IMG/VR virus record: IMGVR_UViG_3300010429_001521
Location: 636 to 64,635 of that record
Length of the DNA: 64,000 nt
DNA from: a virus
Lineage: Duplodnaviria; Caudoviricetes
Direction: 5' to 3' (one strand)
The position numbers were made by a program, and so were the translations under genes. Positions 21,809 to 58,787 of the stretch are shown piece after piece (positions within the stretch are counted from its first letter, which is position 1; each line of letters starts with the position of its first letter). Below the pieces are notes generated by a model. That model worked only from the letters and a program-made list of their open reading frames with translations, had not been told where the DNA came from and made no database searches.

Positions 21809-22150
21809 ATGTCACACGTATCCACTACCGGAAGATTTAAAATGAATGAACAAGCGATTGAAGCTGAAATTCAAAGTAAGAATTTAAACGCACCTCGATT
21901 GTCACCTGAACTGATTGATTCAAGGATTGAAAGTGAAGATTATTACGTATTCCCCAACACAACATTAACCGTATGTTGTTTAACATTGAAAAACGGTTAC
22001 ACCGTAACAGGTGAAAGTGCATCAGTTAGTTTGGAAAATTTTGATGAAGACTTGGGTAAAAAGATTGCCCGTAGTCATGCGCGTGATAAGATTTGGGCAT
22101 TGGAAGGTTATACATTGAAAGAACGTTTGTGGTTAAGTGCTCAAGTATAA
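21809..22150 (+). CDS. N4 gp49/Sf6 gp66 family protein (likely start ATG 21842); candidate nucleotide-signal sponge
   Basis: LTVCCLTLKNGYTVTGESASVSLENFDEDLGKKIA...ARDKIWALEGY. Confidence 0.75.
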   Translation: MSHVSTTGRFKMNEQAIEAEIQSKNLNAPRLSPELIDSRIESEDYYVFPNTTLTVCCLTLKNGYTVTGESASVSLENFDEDLGKKIARSHARDKIWALEGYTLKERLWLSAQV

Positions 22151-22174: not shown

Positions 22175-22203
22175 TTGACGGGGTACTTGATAAGTAGTAA
22201 ACT
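22175..22203 (+). promoter_or_regulatory. sigma70 promoter of Y RNA-Ro60 operon
   Basis: TTGACG-17-TAAACT, 7 nt before first RNA unit. Confidence 0.75.
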
Positions 22204-22210
22204 GGTTTTT

Positions 22211-22322
22211 CCGTGGTGCAGTTAACACTTCCTTCGAAAAGTCACAAGTTCGAATCTTGTCACACTGAAAAGTGTGTTGATGTTGGAAGACTTGAGCAAT
22301 AGTGTTAACGTCAACTTACCGG
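22211..22322 (+). ncRNA. Y RNA-like unit 1 (T-arm, closed acceptor-like stem, degenerate D-arm)
   Basis: GTGGTGCAG start; GTTAACACT/AGTGTTAAC stem; ACAAG-TTCGAAT-CTTGT. Confidence 0.7.
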
Positions 22323-22335
22323 ACGATTTGATTTT

Positions 22336-22409
22336 GGGTGGTGCAGAATACAGTTACTTCATTTGCCTTGTAAGCGAACACGATTATACTGTATTCAAGA
22401 TTTTCCCCC
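22336..22409 (+). ncRNA. Y RNA-like unit 2 (short; anticodon-like arm, UGU)
   Basis: GTGGTGCAG; GAATACAGT/ACTGTATTC stem; TTTGC-CTTGTAA-GCGAA. Confidence 0.65.
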
Positions 22410-22419
22410 AATAGTTTTT

Positions 22420-22547
22420 CCGTGGTGCAGTTAACGGTTACTTCAATGGGACTTGATGTCGTAAGTTCGAATCTTACCGTCCTTCACAAAGGACGTAGCT
22501 CAGTGGTAGAGCGCAAGTGAAAAGCACCGTTAACGCTTGTTTCCCGG
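22420..22547 (+). ncRNA. YrlA-like Y RNA unit 3
   Basis: GTTAACGGT/ACCGTTAAC stem; T-arm 22461-77, 7-bp acceptor stem closed by CACA, D-arm GCTC-AGTGGTA-GAGC; GCTTGTTTCCCG 3' motif. Confidence 0.8.
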
Positions 22548-22560
22548 ACAAACACGATTT

Positions 22561-22687
22561 TCGTGGTGTAGAAAACAGTTACTTCGCCTTCTAAGCGGGA
22601 TGTCACAAGTTCGAATCTTGTCATTCACTTCGGTGAATGTAGCTCAGTGGTAGAGCGCCTACGTTACTGTTTTCGCTTGTTTCCCGA
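22561..22687 (+). ncRNA. YrlA-like Y RNA unit 4 (permuted tRNA with UCU anticodon-like arm)
   Basis: GAAAACAGT/ACTGTTTTC stem; TTCGC-CTTCTAA-GCGGG; T-arm; CATTCAC-TTCG-GTGAATG; D-arm. Confidence 0.8.
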
Positions 22688-22732
22688 ACTTTCACTGTTT
22701 GTCCTTACATGTTGTCCATGTGAGGTCTTAAT

Positions 22733-24043
22733 ATGCAACTCAATACCAAAGCTAAATGTACCACCTTCACTCATGAAGGTGCGCCCGCTATTCCGTTGAC
22801 TCCCATTAAAGAACTACGCCGTGCTGTATTGGCATGTTTGTTGTGGGAAGATCAGTTTTATGAATCCGGTCAAGATATTGGAACTCGTATTAAAGAGTTA
22901 GTGGTCAAATGCAAACCGGAAGATGTATCCGCTTTAGCGATTGAATCTCGAACTCAGTACCGTATTCGTCATGCTTCATTGTTATTAGCACGAGAGTTGT
23001 GTCGTCATCCCAAAGCATCGGGACGTTTGGTGGGCGATACAATCTTTAATGTCGTACAACGTGCGGATGAATTGGCTGAATTTTTGTCACTGTACTGGTC
23101 TGATAAAAAACAACCGTTATCCAAACAGGTGAAATACGGATTGCAACGAGCATTCCATCGATTTGATGAGTACGCTCTGGCAAAATATAATCGTGATAAA
23201 AGCATCAAACTCTTGGATGTCATGCGATTAGTCCATCCCAAACCCGCGAATGAAATTCAATCAGCATTATGGAAACGTCTCCGTGATGGGGAATTGAAAA
23301 CTCCCGATACATGGGAAGTGGCATTATCCGCCGGGGTAGATAAGAAGGAAACATTCACTCGACTGATTGAAGAGAAGAAATTGGGTTACTTAGCGTTGTT
23401 ACGTAATCTACGTAATATGCTACAAGCCAACGTAGATGTTGACTTAATTAAGAATACACTAATATCTGGTGCTAAGTTCTCTAAAGCTCTTCCGTTTCGA
23501 TTCATTGCTGCGGCACGACATGCCGTGTCATTGGAAAAGACTTTAGATAAAGCGATGCAATTGTCAGTCAGTATGCTGCCCAAATTACCGGGTAAGACCA
23601 TTGTATTGGTAGATGTCAGTGGATCGATGGTGGGAACTAAAATTTCCCAAAAATCCGAGTTAGATCGTTTGGATGCTGCGGCTGGATTGGCAATCTTAGT
23701 GAATTCATTGGCTGAAGAATGTGTTGTATATACATTTTCCAGTGATGTCATTCGGATGCCCCCACGCCAAGGCATGGCATTACGTGATGCGATTTGTGCC
23801 ACTCATCACGGTAACACACTGTTAGGTCGTGCTATTGAAACGATGAATAAAGAGTCATATGATCGTTTGATTGTGATTACTGATGAACAATCACAGGATG
23901 TTGTATCCTCACCCAAGAGTTTAGGGTATATGGTCAATGTCGCTTCATACCAAAACAGTGTGGGATATGGCTCATGGATTCGTTTAACGGGATTTTCAGA
24001 AGCTCTGGTTCAGTGGATTCAAGCATCTGAATCTTTAACTTGA
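22733..24043 (+). CDS. rsr: Ro60/Rsr-like TROVE + vWA RNA-binding protein
   Basis: THEGAPA, LLWEDQFYE, EYALAKY, DVMRLVHPKP, TPDTWEVALS, ALLRNLRNM, LPFRF; vWA DVSGSM and ITDEQ. Confidence 0.92.
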   Translation: MQLNTKAKCTTFTHEGAPAIPLTPIKELRRAVLACLLWEDQFYESGQDIGTRIKELVVKCKPEDVSALAIESRTQYRIRHASLLLARELCRHPKASGRLVGDTIFNVVQRADELAEFLSLYWSDKKQPLSKQVKYGLQRAFHRFDEYALAKYNRDKSIKLLDVMRLVHPKPANEIQSALWKRLRDGELKTPDTWEVALSAGVDKKETFTRLIEEKKLGYLALLRNLRNMLQANVDVDLIKNTLISGAKFSKALPFRFIAAARHAVSLEKTLDKAMQLSVSMLPKLPGKTIVLVDVSGSMVGTKISQKSELDRLDAAAGLAILVNSLAEECVVYTFSSDVIRMPPRQGMALRDAICATHHGNTLLGRAIETMNKESYDRLIVITDEQSQDVVSSPKSLGYMVNVASYQNSVGYGSWIRLTGFSEALVQWIQASESLT

Positions 24044-24303
24044 CATATAAAATACCATACGTAACCCGTATGGTATTGGAGAATTTTATGAAGTATAAAA
24101 AGATTATTTTATTATTGACAGTATTGATATCTAGTTCTGTTTATGGTGAATCAAACAATCAACATTGTAATAAATCAAATCAAACTAAACATTACTATGA
24201 ACGTCATTATGACCGTCATAAAGAATATGATCGACAAAGATCAATAAATCAAACACGTCCCACTGTTAAAATCACTCCACGCAAATGGAAACCTCAATAC
24301 TAA
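24040..24303 (+). CDS. Small secreted protein (likely start MKYKKIILL)
   Basis: Signal-peptide-like segment. Confidence 0.4.
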   Translation: MTYKIPYVTRMVLENFMKYKKIILLLTVLISSSVYGESNNQHCNKSNQTKHYYERHYDRHKEYDRQRSINQTRPTVKITPRKWKPQY

Positions 24304-24670: not shown

Positions 24671-25033
24671 ATGATGTTAAAAATGGAAGGTTATGAACAA
24701 CCTTTAATTAAGTTGTCTGAATTACAATTTTCAGTGTATGAAGTTGTAAAGCAACTACAACCTGTCAACATTGAAACACTAAGGAATTCTTTAAAAGAAG
24801 TTAAGAAATCATCTTTAACTTCTGCTTTACGATCTTTAAAAGAAAAAGGTTTGATTCTGCATGAAATACCTTTTTATAAAACAACCGATAAAAAATTCTT
24901 TAATTTAAAGAATAAAGAACCTGCTAATGAACCGAAAATGGATTGTTATTCCATTCAAGAACAATTGGAATGGAATAAAAGAATTCTACAACAAAAAGCA
25001 TTACGCGAAGCTCGTATGAGGATTAATTTGTGA
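24671..25033 (+). CDS. Winged-helix DNA-binding protein
   Basis: QFSVYEVVKQ...SSLTSALRSLKEKGLI. Confidence 0.55.
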   Translation: MMLKMEGYEQPLIKLSELQFSVYEVVKQLQPVNIETLRNSLKEVKKSSLTSALRSLKEKGLILHEIPFYKTTDKKFFNLKNKEPANEPKMDCYSIQEQLEWNKRILQQKALREARMRINL

Positions 25034-25383
25034 AAACCATTATTGCGGGATCAAGAACTATTACGGATCTTAAACATGTGGAAGATGCTATTATCCGTAG
25101 TCAATTTCAGATTACTGAAATTATTTCGGGTGGAGCACGAGGTGTAGATACATTAGCGATGCATTATGCGCAACAAAATAAGATACCACTTACCATCATG
25201 CGAGCCGATTGGGACAAGTTGGGTAAGTCGGCTGGATTTCGTCGCAATGCCACCATGGCTACCATGGCAGATGCTTTAATTGCATTGTGGGATGGTGAAA
25301 GTCGTGGAACATTGCACATGATTAACGTTGCTAAAGAACGTGGATTGAAAGTCTACACTCACTTTTTAGGAGAATCTACATGA
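25030..25383 (+). CDS. SLOG-family (YspA/DUF2493-like) protein
   Basis: MKTIIAGSR, IISGGARGVD, GKSAGFRRN, WDGESRGT. Confidence 0.85.
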   Translation: MKTIIAGSRTITDLKHVEDAIIRSQFQITEIISGGARGVDTLAMHYAQQNKIPLTIMRADWDKLGKSAGFRRNATMATMADALIALWDGESRGTLHMINVAKERGLKVYTHFLGEST

Positions 25384-26925: not shown

Positions 26926-27315
26926 ATGCTATATAAAAAAATTAAAAAACCTCCAGTCGTTATCAATGCCACGATTAATAAAGTCATCGTGGAAGTTAAA
27001 AAGATTCCAAAACCCAATCACATCCAACGAACTAAAGAATTTTTAATTCATTTACGAAAGTACTTTCCAGTCTTTCAAAAATATCAACCATTAATGATTG
27101 GAGTCGCTAAAGAATTAGTACCCATATTTCCTGAGATTCCCAAGCGGGTGATTAACACTGCATTGCATTTACACACCAACTCAAGAAAATATTTAAAGAA
27201 TTTAGCAAAAGGTTATGATCGAGTAGATTTATCGGGTCAAATGATTTCAACGACTGATAAGGTGAGTGTTCAAAAAGCTAAAAAGAGTTTAGCATTGTTG
27301 TTTAAAAAGTCATAG
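26926..27315 (+). CDS. ProQ/FinO-domain RNA chaperone
   Basis: FPVF...PLMIGVAKEL...ALHLHTNSRKYLKNLAKGYDRVDLSG. Confidence 0.8.
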   Translation: MLYKKIKKPPVVINATINKVIVEVKKIPKPNHIQRTKEFLIHLRKYFPVFQKYQPLMIGVAKELVPIFPEIPKRVINTALHLHTNSRKYLKNLAKGYDRVDLSGQMISTTDKVSVQKAKKSLALLFKKS

Positions 27316-27376: not shown

Positions 27377-28261
27377 TTGGAGAATCCAATGAGTCATTTT
27401 GAAATCATGTTAGTAAAACCTCATGAAGTTATTGTTGTTGAAGGTCGTAATCCACGAATGACGTTGCTCAATATTGAGCAACTAGCAGAGTCTATTGAAG
27501 AAAATGGTGTTCGTAATCCCATTAAGATTCAAATGGGAGATGAAGGTTATGAATTGGTAGATGGACATCGGCGTTTAGCGGCATGTCAATATTTATATGA
27601 CACTAAAGAATTGCTAATTAATATTCCAGCAGTCAAAGTAGATCATAAAAACGAAGCTGACATTTTAGTGGAAATGATGGTCAGCAATGACAGTGAACCA
27701 TTTGCACCGTTTGAAGAAGCGACTTTGTACGCTCGGCTGCGTGATCAGTTCAAAATGAATAATGAACAGATTGCCCAACGAGTGGGTAAGAGTGTCAGTC
27801 ATGTCAGTGATAAACTGGCATTGCTTCGTGCCGATGAAACGTTGAAAAGAGCAGTGGAAGAGAAAGTTATTTCCGCATCTGACGCAAATACAATTGTTCG
27901 CAAATCCAAGGGATCTACGGAAAAGCAAAAGGAACTGGTACAACGGGTTCAAACTGAAGGTCGTGAACAAGTCATTGACAAGGAATTGAAAAAAGGTCGT
28001 TTACCCAAACCGGCTTGGGCATTAGCGGAACAAGCGCATGATGAGGTGTGGTCATGTGCAATGAATCTAAACAGGGAAGTCTGTATGGGCGCATTGGACA
28101 GTGAAAATGTACGTGAATGGTTAGAAGGAACATTCGAAGAAAATGTGGATGAAGTCATGTTTGCATTTGGTTTGGGACAATTGGAAGTGTTTAAGAATAT
28201 GAGTTCATTGTCCATGAAAGAATTATGGGATCGACTTGAAGAACGTTTGACAGGTAAATAA
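27377..28261 (+). CDS. ParB-like protein 1
   Basis: NPR...LAESIEENGVRNPI...LVDGHRRL; NEQIAQRVGKSVSHVS HTH. Confidence 0.85.
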   Translation: MENPMSHFEIMLVKPHEVIVVEGRNPRMTLLNIEQLAESIEENGVRNPIKIQMGDEGYELVDGHRRLAACQYLYDTKELLINIPAVKVDHKNEADILVEMMVSNDSEPFAPFEEATLYARLRDQFKMNNEQIAQRVGKSVSHVSDKLALLRADETLKRAVEEKVISASDANTIVRKSKGSTEKQKELVQRVQTEGREQVIDKELKKGRLPKPAWALAEQAHDEVWSCAMNLNREVCMGALDSENVREWLEGTFEENVDEVMFAFGLGQLEVFKNMSSLSMKELWDRLEERLTGK

Positions 28262-33448: not shown

Positions 33449-33820
33449 ATGCATCAATATCAACAGTCTATCATTGTGAAAACACAGTTAGAAGCTCTTC
33501 ATCAATGGGGAAATATCCCATCTGAACATCCCTCTCAATATTTGAAAAATTCTCATCGACATCTTTTTCAAATTGAACTCCGATTCCATGTTAATCATTC
33601 AGATAGAGATATTGAATTTATTGCATTTAAACAACAAGTAGATCAATTTATACAGAATTATTTTATACGAGATACTCAATCGGGTTTAATTAATTTACAA
33701 AATTATTCATGCGAGATGTTGGGAAATTTACTCATTCAAAAGTATCATTTTGATGGTTGTTACTGTGTTCAAATATTAGAAGATGGTGAAATGGGTTCCA
33801 TAGTGGAGTACATCGAATGA
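33449..33820 (+). CDS. QueD/PTPS-like T-fold protein
   Basis: EALHQW...HRHLF...DRDIEF...SCEMLG...EDGE. Confidence 0.75.
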   Translation: MHQYQQSIIVKTQLEALHQWGNIPSEHPSQYLKNSHRHLFQIELRFHVNHSDRDIEFIAFKQQVDQFIQNYFIRDTQSGLINLQNYSCEMLGNLLIQKYHFDGCYCVQILEDGEMGSIVEYIE

Positions 33821-34932
33821 ATTTTGTTACTGAACAAAAATCTTATTTTTTTCCTGTTTTGTATCATGAGACTGAAGCACATAAAATTATTGAATGGAAT
33901 ATCTCCGTTCAATGTATTGATGACATTCCCACGATTGTCACGGTGTTTGGCTATACCGATGGTAAAAAACAAACAACGATGTTAAAGATTTTATATGGTA
34001 AAAATATTGGACGTAGTAATCAAACGACACCTTATGAACAAGCAGTATCTGAAGCTAAATCTAAATGGGAAAAAAAGCAGTTAGAAAATTATCGTCAAAA
34101 TGTGAATGACACCATCCAACTGCTTCCCATGTTGGCGCATAAGTATGTAGATCATAAACATAAATTAACATGGCCCGTATATGGGCAAAAGAAATTAAAT
34201 GGTGTAAGATGTTTAGCTTTTATTAAAGATGATACCGTCACATATATTTCTCGTAAAGGTAAAAAGTACGAAACACTCACTCATTGGAATGATGACTTGA
34301 AAAATCTGTTTCCCAGTGGTACAATACTGGATGGTGAAGCTTTTAACCCCCAGTTGAATTTTCAAGAAATTATTCGTCGGGTAAAAAGAGTTAAAACTTC
34401 CCGATTAAATATTGAAGATGATCCACTACAATATTGGATTTATGATGTTGTAGAAACATCTTTATCTTATGAAGATCGTTTAAGGTTTTTAATGGAACGA
34501 GATTCAACTCAATTAATTAAAATTGTACGGACACAACTTTTGGAATCTGAAGATCAATTAAAACGTTTTCATCAACAGAATTTAATTAATGGATTTGAAG
34601 GTACCATTGTTCGTTCGCGACATGGGTTATATAAACCGGACTGTCGCAGTTATGATTTATTAAAATATAAAGATTTTTTAGATGAAGAGTTTGAAATCAT
34701 TGGAGGTCGTTCAGCACAAGGTCGTGATGAAGGAACTGTAGTATTTGAATGTAAAACGAGTACTGGACAAAGTTTTAATGTCCGTCCCAAAGGTACTTGG
34801 GATGAACGAAAAGATTATTTAGATCGTATCGATCAGTATGTGGGACAGATGTTGACTGTTCGATTTCAAGAAAAGTCAGAAGATGGTGTACCAATCTTTC
34901 CAGTTGGATTAGGAATTCGTGACTTTGAGTAA
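33817..34932 (+). CDS. ATP-dependent DNA ligase
   Basis: PMLAH, KLNGVRC, LDGE, EGTIVR, LLKYK, GVPIFPVGLGIRDFE. Confidence 0.92.
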   Translation: MNFVTEQKSYFFPVLYHETEAHKIIEWNISVQCIDDIPTIVTVFGYTDGKKQTTMLKILYGKNIGRSNQTTPYEQAVSEAKSKWEKKQLENYRQNVNDTIQLLPMLAHKYVDHKHKLTWPVYGQKKLNGVRCLAFIKDDTVTYISRKGKKYETLTHWNDDLKNLFPSGTILDGEAFNPQLNFQEIIRRVKRVKTSRLNIEDDPLQYWIYDVVETSLSYEDRLRFLMERDSTQLIKIVRTQLLESEDQLKRFHQQNLINGFEGTIVRSRHGLYKPDCRSYDLLKYKDFLDEEFEIIGGRSAQGRDEGTVVFECKTSTGQSFNVRPKGTWDERKDYLDRIDQYVGQMLTVRFQEKSEDGVPIFPVGLGIRDFE

Positions 34933-58702: not shown

Positions 58703-58787
58703 GGGGTCGTGGTGGAATTGGTAGACACTACAAGTTTAAGCCTTGTTATCAAAAGATGTGAGAGTTCGAGTCTCTCCGACCCCACCA
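58703..58787 (+). tRNA. tRNA-Leu(UAA)
   Basis: GGGGTCG/CGACCCC acceptor, A-CCA end, GGAATTGGTAGAC D-loop, ACAAG-TTTAAGC-CTTGT, long V-arm, GTTCGAGTC. Confidence 0.92.

What the first reader, a model, noticed from the sequence alone, without database searches (positions are those of the whole stretch)
22175..24043. Phage Ro60 operon with an array of four Y RNAs, two displaying canonical anticodon loops
A sigma70 promoter drives four units, each starting GTGGTG(C/T)AG and each with its own 9-bp covarying closing stem, then a full TROVE-vWA gene. Units 3 and 4 have YrlA topology (T-arm, loop-closed 7-bp acceptor stem, D-arm). Unit 4 also has a 5-bp arm with loop CT-TCT-AA (Arg UCU) before the V-region and T-arm, making a complete tRNA circularly permuted at 26/27 and grafted on the Ro-binding stem. 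Unit 2 is a minimal Y RNA showing only a CT-TGT-AA (Thr UGU) arm; units 1 and 3 have different or degenerate inserts at that site. YrlA as I know it replaces the anticodon arm with the Ro stem. Inference: a modular Ro60-scaffolded set of non-aminoacylatable tRNA decoys against anticodon nucleases or tRNA-sensing defences. No RtcB/RtcA is in the window.
Basis: partly seen in the sequence, partly recalled or inferred. Interest (0 to 1): 0.92.

Follow-up and report, generated by a model that had tools for sequence, protein, structure and literature searches.

The report
Phage Y RNAs carrying anticodon arms
A phage encodes the RNA-surveillance protein Ro60 behind four partner "Y RNAs", one of which is a whole tRNA look-alike with an anticodon arm. 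The same arm, with a fast-changing triplet, turns up in at least 27 of 75 phage and 39 of 80 bacterial Ro60 loci examined, whereas published work describes these RNAs as lacking an anticodon loop.

Summary
Four Y-RNA units (22210-22688) lie upstream of a TROVE+vWA Ro60 gene (22733-24043). Units 3, 4 and 1 match Rfam YrlA below its gathering score.

Unit 4 has a hairpin with the 7-nt loop CUUCUAA ahead of a V-like AUGUC and the T-arm. Chen et al. 2014 saw this hairpin and called it a "V" (variable) arm. My data favour an anticodon arm:
- In 79 phage and bacterial units, U33 is kept in 75 and R37 in 75, while positions 34-36 carry almost no information (27 different triplets).
- G36 goes with G37 and U36 with A37, as in tRNAs.
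- The two bases after the D-arm covary with positions 42-43 (31 double changes). The invariant 5' UU shows none.

Among close relatives the triplet is the fastest-changing part of the RNA.

Unit 2's "anticodon" loop is ambiguous, and the promoter is unproven. The decoy function is inference (about 0.3). I found no paper describing the anticodon arm. Earlier notes of this scan report similar RNAs beside Ro60-like genes in other phages. Verdict: a new variant of a known kind.

The parts
22175..22203 (+). Promoter-like site TTGACG-17-TAAACT
   Evidence: 9 of 12 matches, with no excess of such sites over shuffles. The stretch is identical in L001. Only the TTGACGGGGTA part is kept in L002. Unproven.
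22210..22323 (+). Y RNA unit 1. It has a Ro-type terminal stem, a 9-bp stem and UCCUUC. Its T-arm is at 22244-22260. The acceptor is 6 bp and closed by GAAA. The D-arm is degenerate: a single strand that keeps GG.
   Evidence: Rfam YrlA 21.8 bits, E 0.049. Conserved as unit B of L002. Fold.
22334..22411 (+). Y RNA unit 2. It is minimal, with no tRNA body. It has a 9-bp stem, UACUUC and a hairpin at 22362-22378 that can be read as UUUGC-CUUGUAA-GCGAA.
   Evidence: Fold z -2.97. The homologue in L001 has loop UUUGCAA. A rival triloop fold is the MFE. 25 of 100 minimal units elsewhere show a 7-nt-loop hairpin in the same register.
22419..22548 (+). Y RNA unit 3. It is a canonical YrlA with no anticodon loop. 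The stem ACUUG (22451-55) / CAAGU (22514-18) runs on towards the Ro stem. The T-arm is at 22461-77, the closed acceptor at 22478-95 and the D-arm at 22498-22512.
   Evidence: Rfam YrlA 42.5 bits, E 5e-8. Fold z -2.98.
22560..22688 (+). Y RNA unit 4, a complete permuted tRNA mimic on a Ro stem.
   Evidence: Rfam YrlA 38 bits, E 1e-6. The Rfam tRNA model scores 24.3 bits over the anticodon arm, V region and T-arm. Covariation.
22585..22599 (+). Unit 4 anticodon arm. C29-G30-C31 is at 22585-87. The loop CUUCUAA is at 22588-94, with triplet UCU at 22590-92. G39-C40-G41 is at 22595-97 and G42-G43 at 22598-99.
   Evidence: Homologues: L001 CAUUUAA, and L002 CUUUUAA with the compensatory stem UUCAC/GUGAG.
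22657..22659 (+). G26, C27 and C28 after the D-arm. C27-C28 pair with G43-G42.
   Evidence: Column pair 30-102 of alignment A2: AU 30, GC 21, CG 9, with 31 changes on both sides. The 5'-strand alternative shows no change on both sides and 10 unpaired. Permutation test 0/20000.
22733..24043 (+). rsr, a Ro60 orthologue of 436 aa with TROVE ring and vWA domains. The motif DVSGS fits the vWA MIDAS motif DxSxS.
   Evidence: Pfam TROVE E 4.5e-16; vWA_Ro60 24.6 bits. PDB 9KOP/9L5Y E 7e-18. 74 viral and more than 80 bacterial relatives.
24051..24077 (+). 11-bp palindromic hairpin after rsr, a possible terminator.
   Evidence: One search listed it on the minus strand. The sequence is palindromic, and the T tract on the plus strand is weak.

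Best explanation
What it is (shown):
- The region is a phage Ro60 (Rsr) gene preceded by four genes for its partner Y RNAs.
- Each RNA has a bulged terminal stem with the motif GGUG(C/U)AG, a 9-bp stem and a U(A/C)CUUC junction. I infer the terminal stem is the Ro60 binding site.
- The module on top differs between units.
  - Unit 3 is a classical YrlA: T-arm, closed acceptor and D-arm, with the 'anticodon stem' continuing into the Ro stem.
  - Unit 1 is the same without a proper D-arm.
  - Unit 2 is minimal.
  - Unit 4 is a complete tRNA cloverleaf in permuted order.
- In unit 4 the strand after the D-arm gives G26-C27-C28. These pair with G43-G42.
- The 5' strand gives C29-G30-C31, the 7-nt loop C32-U33-UCU-A37-A38, and G39-C40-G41.
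- A 5-nt V loop, the T-arm and an acceptor closed by UUCG follow.
- The Ro stem is thus a side branch in the 5' strand of the anticodon stem, between positions 28 and 29.
- This design is common in phage and bacterial rsr loci.

What it does (inferred):
- The RNA offers tRNA-recognising proteins a tRNA look-alike that cannot be charged and that carries a specific, fast-evolving anticodon loop.
- The most likely partners are enzymes that read the anticodon loop.
- I think the likeliest are anticodon nucleases or tRNase toxins, which the RNA would compete against or soak up while held on Ro60. I put that at about 0.3.
- Binding to Ro60, processing of the units, base modification and any defence phenotype are all untested.
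For: Identity of the locus:
- TROVE plus vWA gene.
- YrlA matches for U3, U4 and U1.
- 9-bp stems that differ between units by paired changes.

The hairpin is real:
- Pairs 30:40 and 31:39 covary. Columns 18-26 of A2 give CG 38, AU 9, UA 6, none unpaired.

The loop has the anticodon-loop signature (n=79 units):
- Y32 in 71, U33 in 75, R37 in 75, A/C38 in 78.
- Information at positions 34-36 is only 0.29, 0.04 and 0.28 bits, with 27 different triplets.
- V region: AGGUC in 38 of 79 units, UGGUC in 8 and other 4-6-nt variants in the rest.
- G36 goes with G37 (15/17) and U36 with A37 (40/41). Fisher p = 3e-10, or 8e-7 on distinct loops. This matches the m1G37 and t6A37 pattern of real tRNAs (established knowledge).

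Pairing of 27-28 with 42-43:
- Watson-Crick in 68/73 units, using four pair types. The permutation null was 25 +/- 3.9, with 0 of 20000 reaching the observed value.
- 31 changes on both sides in A2, against none for the invariant 5' UU.

Rate of change:
- In 21 disjoint close pairs the triplet differs at 0.444 per site.
- The core differs at 0.074 (p = 2e-14), the loop flanks at 0.155 and the acceptor hairpin at 0.251.

Link to tRNA damage and repair:
- In B. yuanmingense RtcB lies just downstream of rsr.
- Hughes 2020 (PMC7790460) links the rsr-rtcBA operon to anticodon-loop cleavage and suggests YrlA may inhibit the nuclease.
Against: - No transcript, Ro60-binding, modification or cleavage data exist for this RNA or any RNA of this design.
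- A high substitution rate in the triplet is what neutral drift would also give.
- Some triplets (AUU, AUC) do not occur as natural bacterial anticodons.
- Ser and Leu triplets sit on a class I body, so whole-tRNA identity is not mimicked.
- 4 of 79 loops have A33, including the closest relative, L001.
- The record has no RtcB or RNA ligase, though it is incomplete.
- The nearest-neighbour MFE prefers the UU.GG wobble pairs over the C27-C28 pairs.
- ARAGORN calls on the re-ordered units do not depend on the arm. Shuffling nt 29-41 still gave 63-67 of 73 calls.
- The units I analysed were picked by a hairpin-seeking parser.
Confidence: 0.6

Rival explanations
1. The hairpin is a long variable arm, as drawn by Chen et al. 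2014. The Ro stem is the anticodon-stem equivalent, and the loop does not imitate an anticodon loop.
For: This is the published reading (PMC4201824). A hairpin between the long stem and the T-arm sits where a class II variable arm would. The MFE fold closes the hairpin with the 5' strand only.
Against: - The loop is always 7 nt with the Y32-U33...R37-A38 signature. Class II variable arms have 3-5-nt loops (established knowledge).
- A separate 4-6-nt V region, most often AGGUC (38 of 79 units), follows the hairpin.
- The bases after G26 covary with the last two bases of the hairpin's 3' strand, as 27-28:42-43 do in tRNA.
- The Rfam tRNA model aligns the hairpin to its anticodon arm.
Confidence: 0.1
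2. The arm is a real anticodon-arm-shaped module, but the triplet has no meaning. Only the stem and the U-turn frame matter, for folding or for binding an unknown effector, and the three middle bases drift freely.
For: Information at positions 34-36 is near zero, and these sites change fastest. Unnatural triplets such as AUU and AUC occur. Triplets show no clear relation to neighbouring phage tRNA genes.
Against: - The G36-G37 and U36-A37 coupling shows that at least position 36 is read together with 37.
- Nearly identical RNAs can differ at 5 of 7 loop positions. L138 and L147 have 1.6% core divergence, which looks like replacement rather than slow drift.
- Loci with two such RNAs always carry two different triplets, 6 of 6.
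Confidence: 0.3
3. The tRNA-like module docks Ro60 (with PNPase) on ribosomes or mRNA by codon-anticodon pairing, aiming RNA decay at particular codons or stalled ribosomes.
For: The 36-37 rule in real tRNAs exists for decoding (established knowledge) and is kept here. Ro60, Y RNA and PNPase act in RNA decay in Deinococcus (PMC4201824 introduction).
Against: - A Ro stem of more than 20 bp, with Ro60 on it, branches from position 28|29 close to the anticodon. This should clash with the 30S decoding site (inference).
- The acceptor is closed, so there is no EF-Tu delivery.
- There are no data.
Confidence: 0.07
4. The units are permuted tRNA genes that are processed into working tRNAs.
For: All tRNA parts are present, and the re-ordered units are called tRNAs by ARAGORN (70 of 73). 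M. smegmatis YrlA is cut by RNase P and receives CCA (PMC4201824).
Against: - Acceptor stems in the phage units are sealed by UUCG or GNRA tetraloops.
- The ends lie in a long Ro-type stem next to a Ro60 gene.
- Ser and Leu triplets lack the long variable arm.
- A34 triplets are unnatural.
- ARAGORN calls nothing on the 73 extracted units in native order or in the window; in whole loci it calls three such Y RNAs (L016, L038, L068) as short tRNAs.
Confidence: 0.03

Closest known systems
YrlA Y RNA with Rsr/Ro60 (Rfam RF02553; Salmonella, M. smegmatis, mycobacteriophages; Chen 2014 PMC4201824; Wang 2018 bioRxiv 10.1101/312249)
   Same: - The RNA gene lies next to Ro60 on the same strand.
- It has a terminal Ro-type stem.
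- It has a T-arm, a closed acceptor and a D-arm in the same permuted order.
- Several Y RNAs occur per locus.
- A stem-loop upstream of the T-arm was already noted and labelled V.
   Different: - The solved Salmonella YrlA 'lacks the anticodon loop'. Its anticodon stem runs into the Ro stem, as in unit 3 here.
- Unit 4 and its many relatives have a full 5-bp, 7-nt-loop anticodon arm built from two strands, with the Ro stem branching at 28|29.
- The Ro motif here is GGUG(C/U)AG rather than GNCGAAN0-1G.
- Scores are below Rfam's gathering threshold.
Thermus phage phiLo Ro60 with Yrl1/Yrl2 (PMC12135203; PDB 9KOP, 9L5Y)
   Same: A phage-encoded Ro60 with two Y-like RNAs upstream of the gene. It is the only solved structure matched by the protein (E 7e-18).
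   Different: The phiLo RNAs were described as stem-bulge-stem Y RNAs, with no tRNA-like domain discussed. That work proposed PNPase hijack.
Deinococcus radiodurans Yrn1
   Same: It is bound by Rsr. Chen 2014 modelled it with a possible 'anticodon arm' with a 5-bp stem.
   Different: That arm has a 6-nt loop, lies between the T and D elements in the opposite orientation, and has no V region.
Other tRNA mimics: tmRNA, TYMV tRNA-like structure, circularly permuted tRNA genes of red algae (the last from my memory)
   Same: L-shaped tRNA imitation. The order of the halves is permuted, as in permuted tRNA genes.
   Different: Those have free CCA ends and are charged or matured into tRNAs. Here the acceptor is sealed and the RNA ends lie in a protein-binding stem.
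'Anticodon-displaying' RNA arrays beside DUF2828 / Ro60-like genes in other phages
   Same: Arrays of small RNAs that share a handle and display anticodon-like loops next to a Ro60-type ring protein.
   Different: Those concern a different protein family and a different handle. I did not check them.

Membership tests
YrlA / bacterial Y RNA (Rfam RF02553) | Encoded within a few kb of a Ro60 (TROVE) orthologue, on the same strand | tested here: met
   The units lie at 22210-22688 and the gene at 22733-24043, all on the plus strand.
YrlA / bacterial Y RNA (Rfam RF02553) | T-arm, loop-closed acceptor stem and D-arm in that order, with tRNA-like conserved bases | tested here: met
   Met by U3 and U4. 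T and D helices are 100% paired in 63 relatives. U1 lacks a D stem and U2 lacks the whole domain.
YrlA / bacterial Y RNA (Rfam RF02553) | Score at or above Rfam's gathering threshold (69 bits) | tested here: not met
   42.5, 38 and 21.8 bits. E-values of 5e-8 and 1e-6 in the local search are still significant.
YrlA / bacterial Y RNA (Rfam RF02553) | 5' motif GNCGAAN0-1G in a terminal bulged stem (proposed Ro60 site, Chen 2014) | tested here: inconclusive
   The window has GGUGCAG or GGUGUAG, which is 5 of 7. Bacterial relatives have GGCGAAG or GGUGAAG.
YrlA / bacterial Y RNA (Rfam RF02553) | Bound by Ro60 in vivo | not testable with these tools
   Needs immunoprecipitation.
tRNA | Cloverleaf with 7-bp acceptor, D-arm, 5-bp anticodon stem with 7-nt loop (U33, R37), V loop and T-arm | tested here: met
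   Met by U4 in permuted order.
tRNA | Free 5' and 3' acceptor ends (CCA) so that it can be charged | tested here: not met
   The acceptor is closed by a UUCG tetraloop at 22629-32.
tRNA | Detected by tRNA finders in native order | tested here: not met
   ARAGORN finds only tRNA-Leu at 58703. The Rfam tRNA model scores 24.3 bits, below its gathering score of 29.
Ro60 / Rsr protein | TROVE HEAT-repeat ring followed by a vWA domain with a MIDAS motif | tested here: met
   Pfam TROVE E 4.5e-16. vWA_Ro60 (24.6 bits) and VWA_2 (21.2 bits) are just under their cut-offs. DVSGS is in the sequence. PDB 9KOP E 7e-18. No fold was predicted.

The most novel reading that the evidence does not exclude
Many Ro60 partner RNAs in phages and bacteria would be programmable 'anticodon displays'. 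Each would be a sealed tRNA body held on Ro60 that shows one rapidly replaceable anticodon loop. These would serve as immunity or decoy RNAs (or bait) against tRNA-cutting toxins and defence nucleases. The triplet repertoire of a genome would then record which anticodon nucleases it faces.
Probability: 0.25. Interest if true: 0.9.

Novelty: new variant of a known kind. Interest (0 to 1): 0.7.

Why it matters
What the tRNA-like domain of bacterial Y RNAs is for has been open since 2014. The published picture, and the only solved structure, is of a tRNA mimic without an anticodon loop.

If at least 27 of 75 phage and 39 of 80 bacterial Ro60 loci in this sample do carry a Y RNA with a complete anticodon arm whose triplet is the fastest-evolving part, the question becomes testable. 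One can ask which anticodon-reading proteins (nucleases, toxins, or modification enzymes such as TrmD or the t6A machinery) bind these RNAs, and whether swapping the triplet changes the outcome.

It also ties Ro60 more closely to the tRNA-damage and RtcB repair pathway.

On the practical side, tRNA finders can miscall these RNAs as tRNAs. ARAGORN did so in L016, L038 and L068.

Tried and rejected
- blastn of the locus against 50,697 phage records found nothing.
- The Rfam gathering search of the window found only tRNA-Leu.
- ARAGORN on re-ordered units looked like strong support: 70 of 73 units were called as tRNAs, 69 of them with the expected anticodon. My control shows it is not. Shuffling nt 29-41 still gave 63-67 calls. 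I therefore do not count it as evidence for the arm.
I rejected it for the outer two pairs: there is no change on both sides, and 10 of 63 are unpaired at 28:42.
- I considered a pseudoknot between the linker CUAC and the GUAG of the Ro motif. I dropped it because bacterial relatives keep CCUAC while their motif is GAAG.
- I looked for RtcB and RNA ligase in the record. There is none. The weak RNA_ligase hit is an ATP-dependent DNA ligase.
- I compared Y-RNA triplets with neighbouring phage tRNA genes and saw no clear rule.
- I could not read three papers, so prior mention of an anticodon arm there cannot be excluded. The papers are the two Wolin-lab reviews (Sim 2018; Sim 2020) and Burroughs & Aravind 2016; none is held.
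- No supplements of Chen 2014 are held, so I could not see their drawings of the 'V' stem-loop.
Full report
**What is there**

The window is almost all of a 64.6-kb IMG/VR virus record that CheckV rates about 44% complete.

Between the end of an N4 gp49/Sf6 gp66-family gene (21809-22150) and a 436-aa ORF (22733-24043) lie four repeated units. The ORF is a Ro60 orthologue:
- Pfam TROVE E 4.5e-16.
- vWA_Ro60 and VWA_2 just under their cut-offs.
- A DVSGS motif.
- A match to the solved Ro60 of Thermus phage phiLo, 9KOP/9L5Y, at E 7e-18.

Each unit begins with GUGGUG(C/U)AG inside a bulged terminal stem. It then has a private 9-bp stem whose sequence differs between units by paired changes, followed by U(A/C)CUUC.

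Searching only this region, Rfam's YrlA model matches unit 3 (42.5 bits, E 5e-8), unit 4 (38 bits, E 1e-6) and unit 1 (21.8 bits, E 0.049). All are below the curated 69 bits, which is why the whole-window search was silent.

**The four modules**

- Unit 3 is a textbook YrlA. ACUUG pairs with CAAGU after G26. Between them lie a V-like AUGUC, a T-arm, a 7-bp acceptor closed by CACA, UA and a D-arm.
- Unit 1 keeps the T-arm and a GAAA-capped 6-bp acceptor but has only a GG-containing single strand where the D-arm should be. It is conserved in L002.
- Unit 2 has no tRNA body. Its hairpin can be drawn as UUUGC-CUUGUAA-GCGAA, but the lowest-energy fold is a longer stem with a triloop. The one homologue (L001, loop UUUGCAA) does not decide between them.
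- Unit 4 has the hairpin UUCGC-CUUCUAA-GCGGG directly after UAC. It is followed by AUGUC, the T-arm, a UUCG-capped 7-bp acceptor, UA, the D-arm, G26 and the linker CCUACGUU.

**Relatives**

The Ro60 protein recovered 74 viral loci and more than 80 bacterial loci. The bacterial loci come mostly from Acidobacteria, Bradyrhizobium, Hyphomonadaceae and Caulobacterales.

A T-arm-anchored parse shows that the unit-4 design is common in both sets. At least 27 viral and 39 bacterial loci have one, and six have two, always with different loops. The closest relatives of the window show the hairpin evolving:
- L001 (Ro60 92% identical) has loop CAUUUAA.
- L002 (76% identical) has CUUUUAA on the compensatory stem UUCAC/GUGAG.

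**Is the loop anticodon-like?**

In 79 non-redundant units:
- Position 33 is U in 75.
- Position 37 is a purine in 75.
- Position 38 is A or C in 78.
- Position 32 is a pyrimidine in 71.
- The three middle positions hold 0.29, 0.04 and 0.28 bits, with 27 different triplets.

The hairpin is followed by a 4-6-nt V region, most often AGGUC (38 of 79).

G36 is followed by G37 in 15 of 17 units, and U36 by A37 in 40 of 41. Fisher p is 3e-10, or 8e-7 on distinct loops. In real tRNAs that coupling reflects m1G37 and t6A37 (established knowledge).

**Where the tRNA is broken**

Chen et al. [quoted passage not shown] Wang et al. 2018 state that Salmonella YrlA lacks the anticodon loop.

I found that the two bases after D-stem+N26 covary with the last two bases of the hairpin's 3' strand:
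- The second pair is Watson-Crick in 68 of 73 units, using U-A, C-G, G-C and A-U. A permutation null gave 25 +/- 3.9, and 0 of 20000 permutations reached 68.
- On a MAFFT alignment of 63 units (A2), the count of structure pairs gives AU 30, GC 21, CG 9 for this pair, with 31 changes on both sides.
- The alternative partner, the invariant U of UACUUC, gives UA 31, UG 22 and 10 unpaired, with no change on both sides.

The anticodon stem is therefore 27-28:42-43, made by the strand that leaves the D-arm as in tRNA, plus 29-31:39-41, made by the 5' strand. The Ro stem is a branch at 28|29.

**Rate of change**

In 21 disjoint pairs of units with at most 15% divergence in the core:
- The triplet differs at 0.444 per site.
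- The core differs at 0.074 (p = 2e-14).
- The loop flanks differ at 0.155.
- The freely covarying acceptor hairpin differs at 0.251.

Two Alphaproteobacterial (Bradyrhizobium-like) units with 1.6% core divergence, L138 and L147, differ at 5 of 7 loop positions. This fits either drift at unconstrained sites or repeated replacement. The 36-37 coupling argues that the loop is not simply unconstrained.

**Controls and cautions**

- Re-ordering the parts into tRNA order makes ARAGORN of 73 units as tRNAs, 69 of them with the expected anticodon. Shuffling nt 29-41 still gives 63-67 calls, so that test says nothing about the arm.
- The units were chosen by a hairpin-seeking parser, so the fraction of Y RNAs with the arm is approximate.
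- 4 of 79 loops have A33.
- Some triplets (AUU, AUC) are not natural anticodons.
- Ser and Leu triplets sit on a class I body.
- The promoter-like site is not above chance.

**Function**

Nothing is shown. The established facts are these:
- Y RNAs bind Ro60 and tether it to effectors such as PNPase.
- YrlA is modified by tRNA enzymes (PMC4201824).
- The Salmonella rsr-yrlBA-rtcBA operon is switched on by tRNA halves made by anticodon-loop cleavage. Its authors suggested that YrlA might competitively inhibit the nuclease (PMC7790460).

In B. yuanmingense RtcB lies directly downstream of rsr, behind a unit-4-type RNA. The phage record and its relative L001 have no RtcB.

My best guess, at about 0.3, is that the sealed tRNA mimic with a specific anticodon loop engages anticodon-reading proteins, above all tRNA-cutting toxins or defence nucleases, as a competitor or bait on a Ro60 scaffold. 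A meaningless triplet on a purely structural module is about as likely.

**Novelty**

Already published:
- Ro60 with Y RNAs in phages.
- Several Y RNAs per locus.
- The extra stem-loop itself.

In the papers I could search I found none of the following:
- The reading of the stem-loop as an anticodon arm.
- The two-strand stem with the branch at 28|29.
- The hypervariable triplet.

Three relevant papers were not available: two Wolin-lab reviews and Burroughs & Aravind 2016. Earlier AI notes of this scan report comparable anticodon-displaying RNAs beside Ro60-like DUF2828 genes in other phages. I did not test those.

Noticed in passing
If so, this phage carries two unrelated tRNA-mimic RNA-protein pairs.
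   Followed up: partly
L016:1490-1559, L038:2396-2475, L068:2533-2602: ARAGORN calls these as short tRNAs (Arg-GCG, Leu-UAG, Ser-UGA). They are Y RNAs of the unit-4 design, read with the Ro stem as a false acceptor. Genome annotations may therefore contain such false tRNAs.
   Followed up: partly
L005, L059, L065, L010, L031 (whole loci): In several phages the Ro60 gene and its Y RNAs sit inside large tRNA gene arrays, up to 25 tRNAs within 7 kb.
   Followed up: no
window 25030-25383 and 26926-27315: Downstream of rsr lie a SLOG-family (YAcAr) protein and a ProQ/FinO-family RNA chaperone, then ParB (27377-28261). This may be a small RNA-biology or accessory island.
   Followed up: no
window 33817-34932: An ATP-dependent DNA ligase (PF01068 E 8e-19). 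It gives a weak RNA_ligase hit but is not an RNA repair ligase.
   Followed up: yes
L127, L139, L148 and other Bradyrhizobium loci, 3' of the D-arm: Bradyrhizobium Y RNAs have an extra GC-rich hairpin inserted between positions 27-28 and the 3' strand of the Ro stem (for example CUUUCCGGCAAGCUUCGGCUCGCC...). It is absent from the phage units.
   Followed up: no
L060:4810, L063:4831: These units have the anticodon-like hairpin and a T-arm, but no recognisable acceptor hairpin or D-arm follows. This may be another reduced variant.
   Followed up: no
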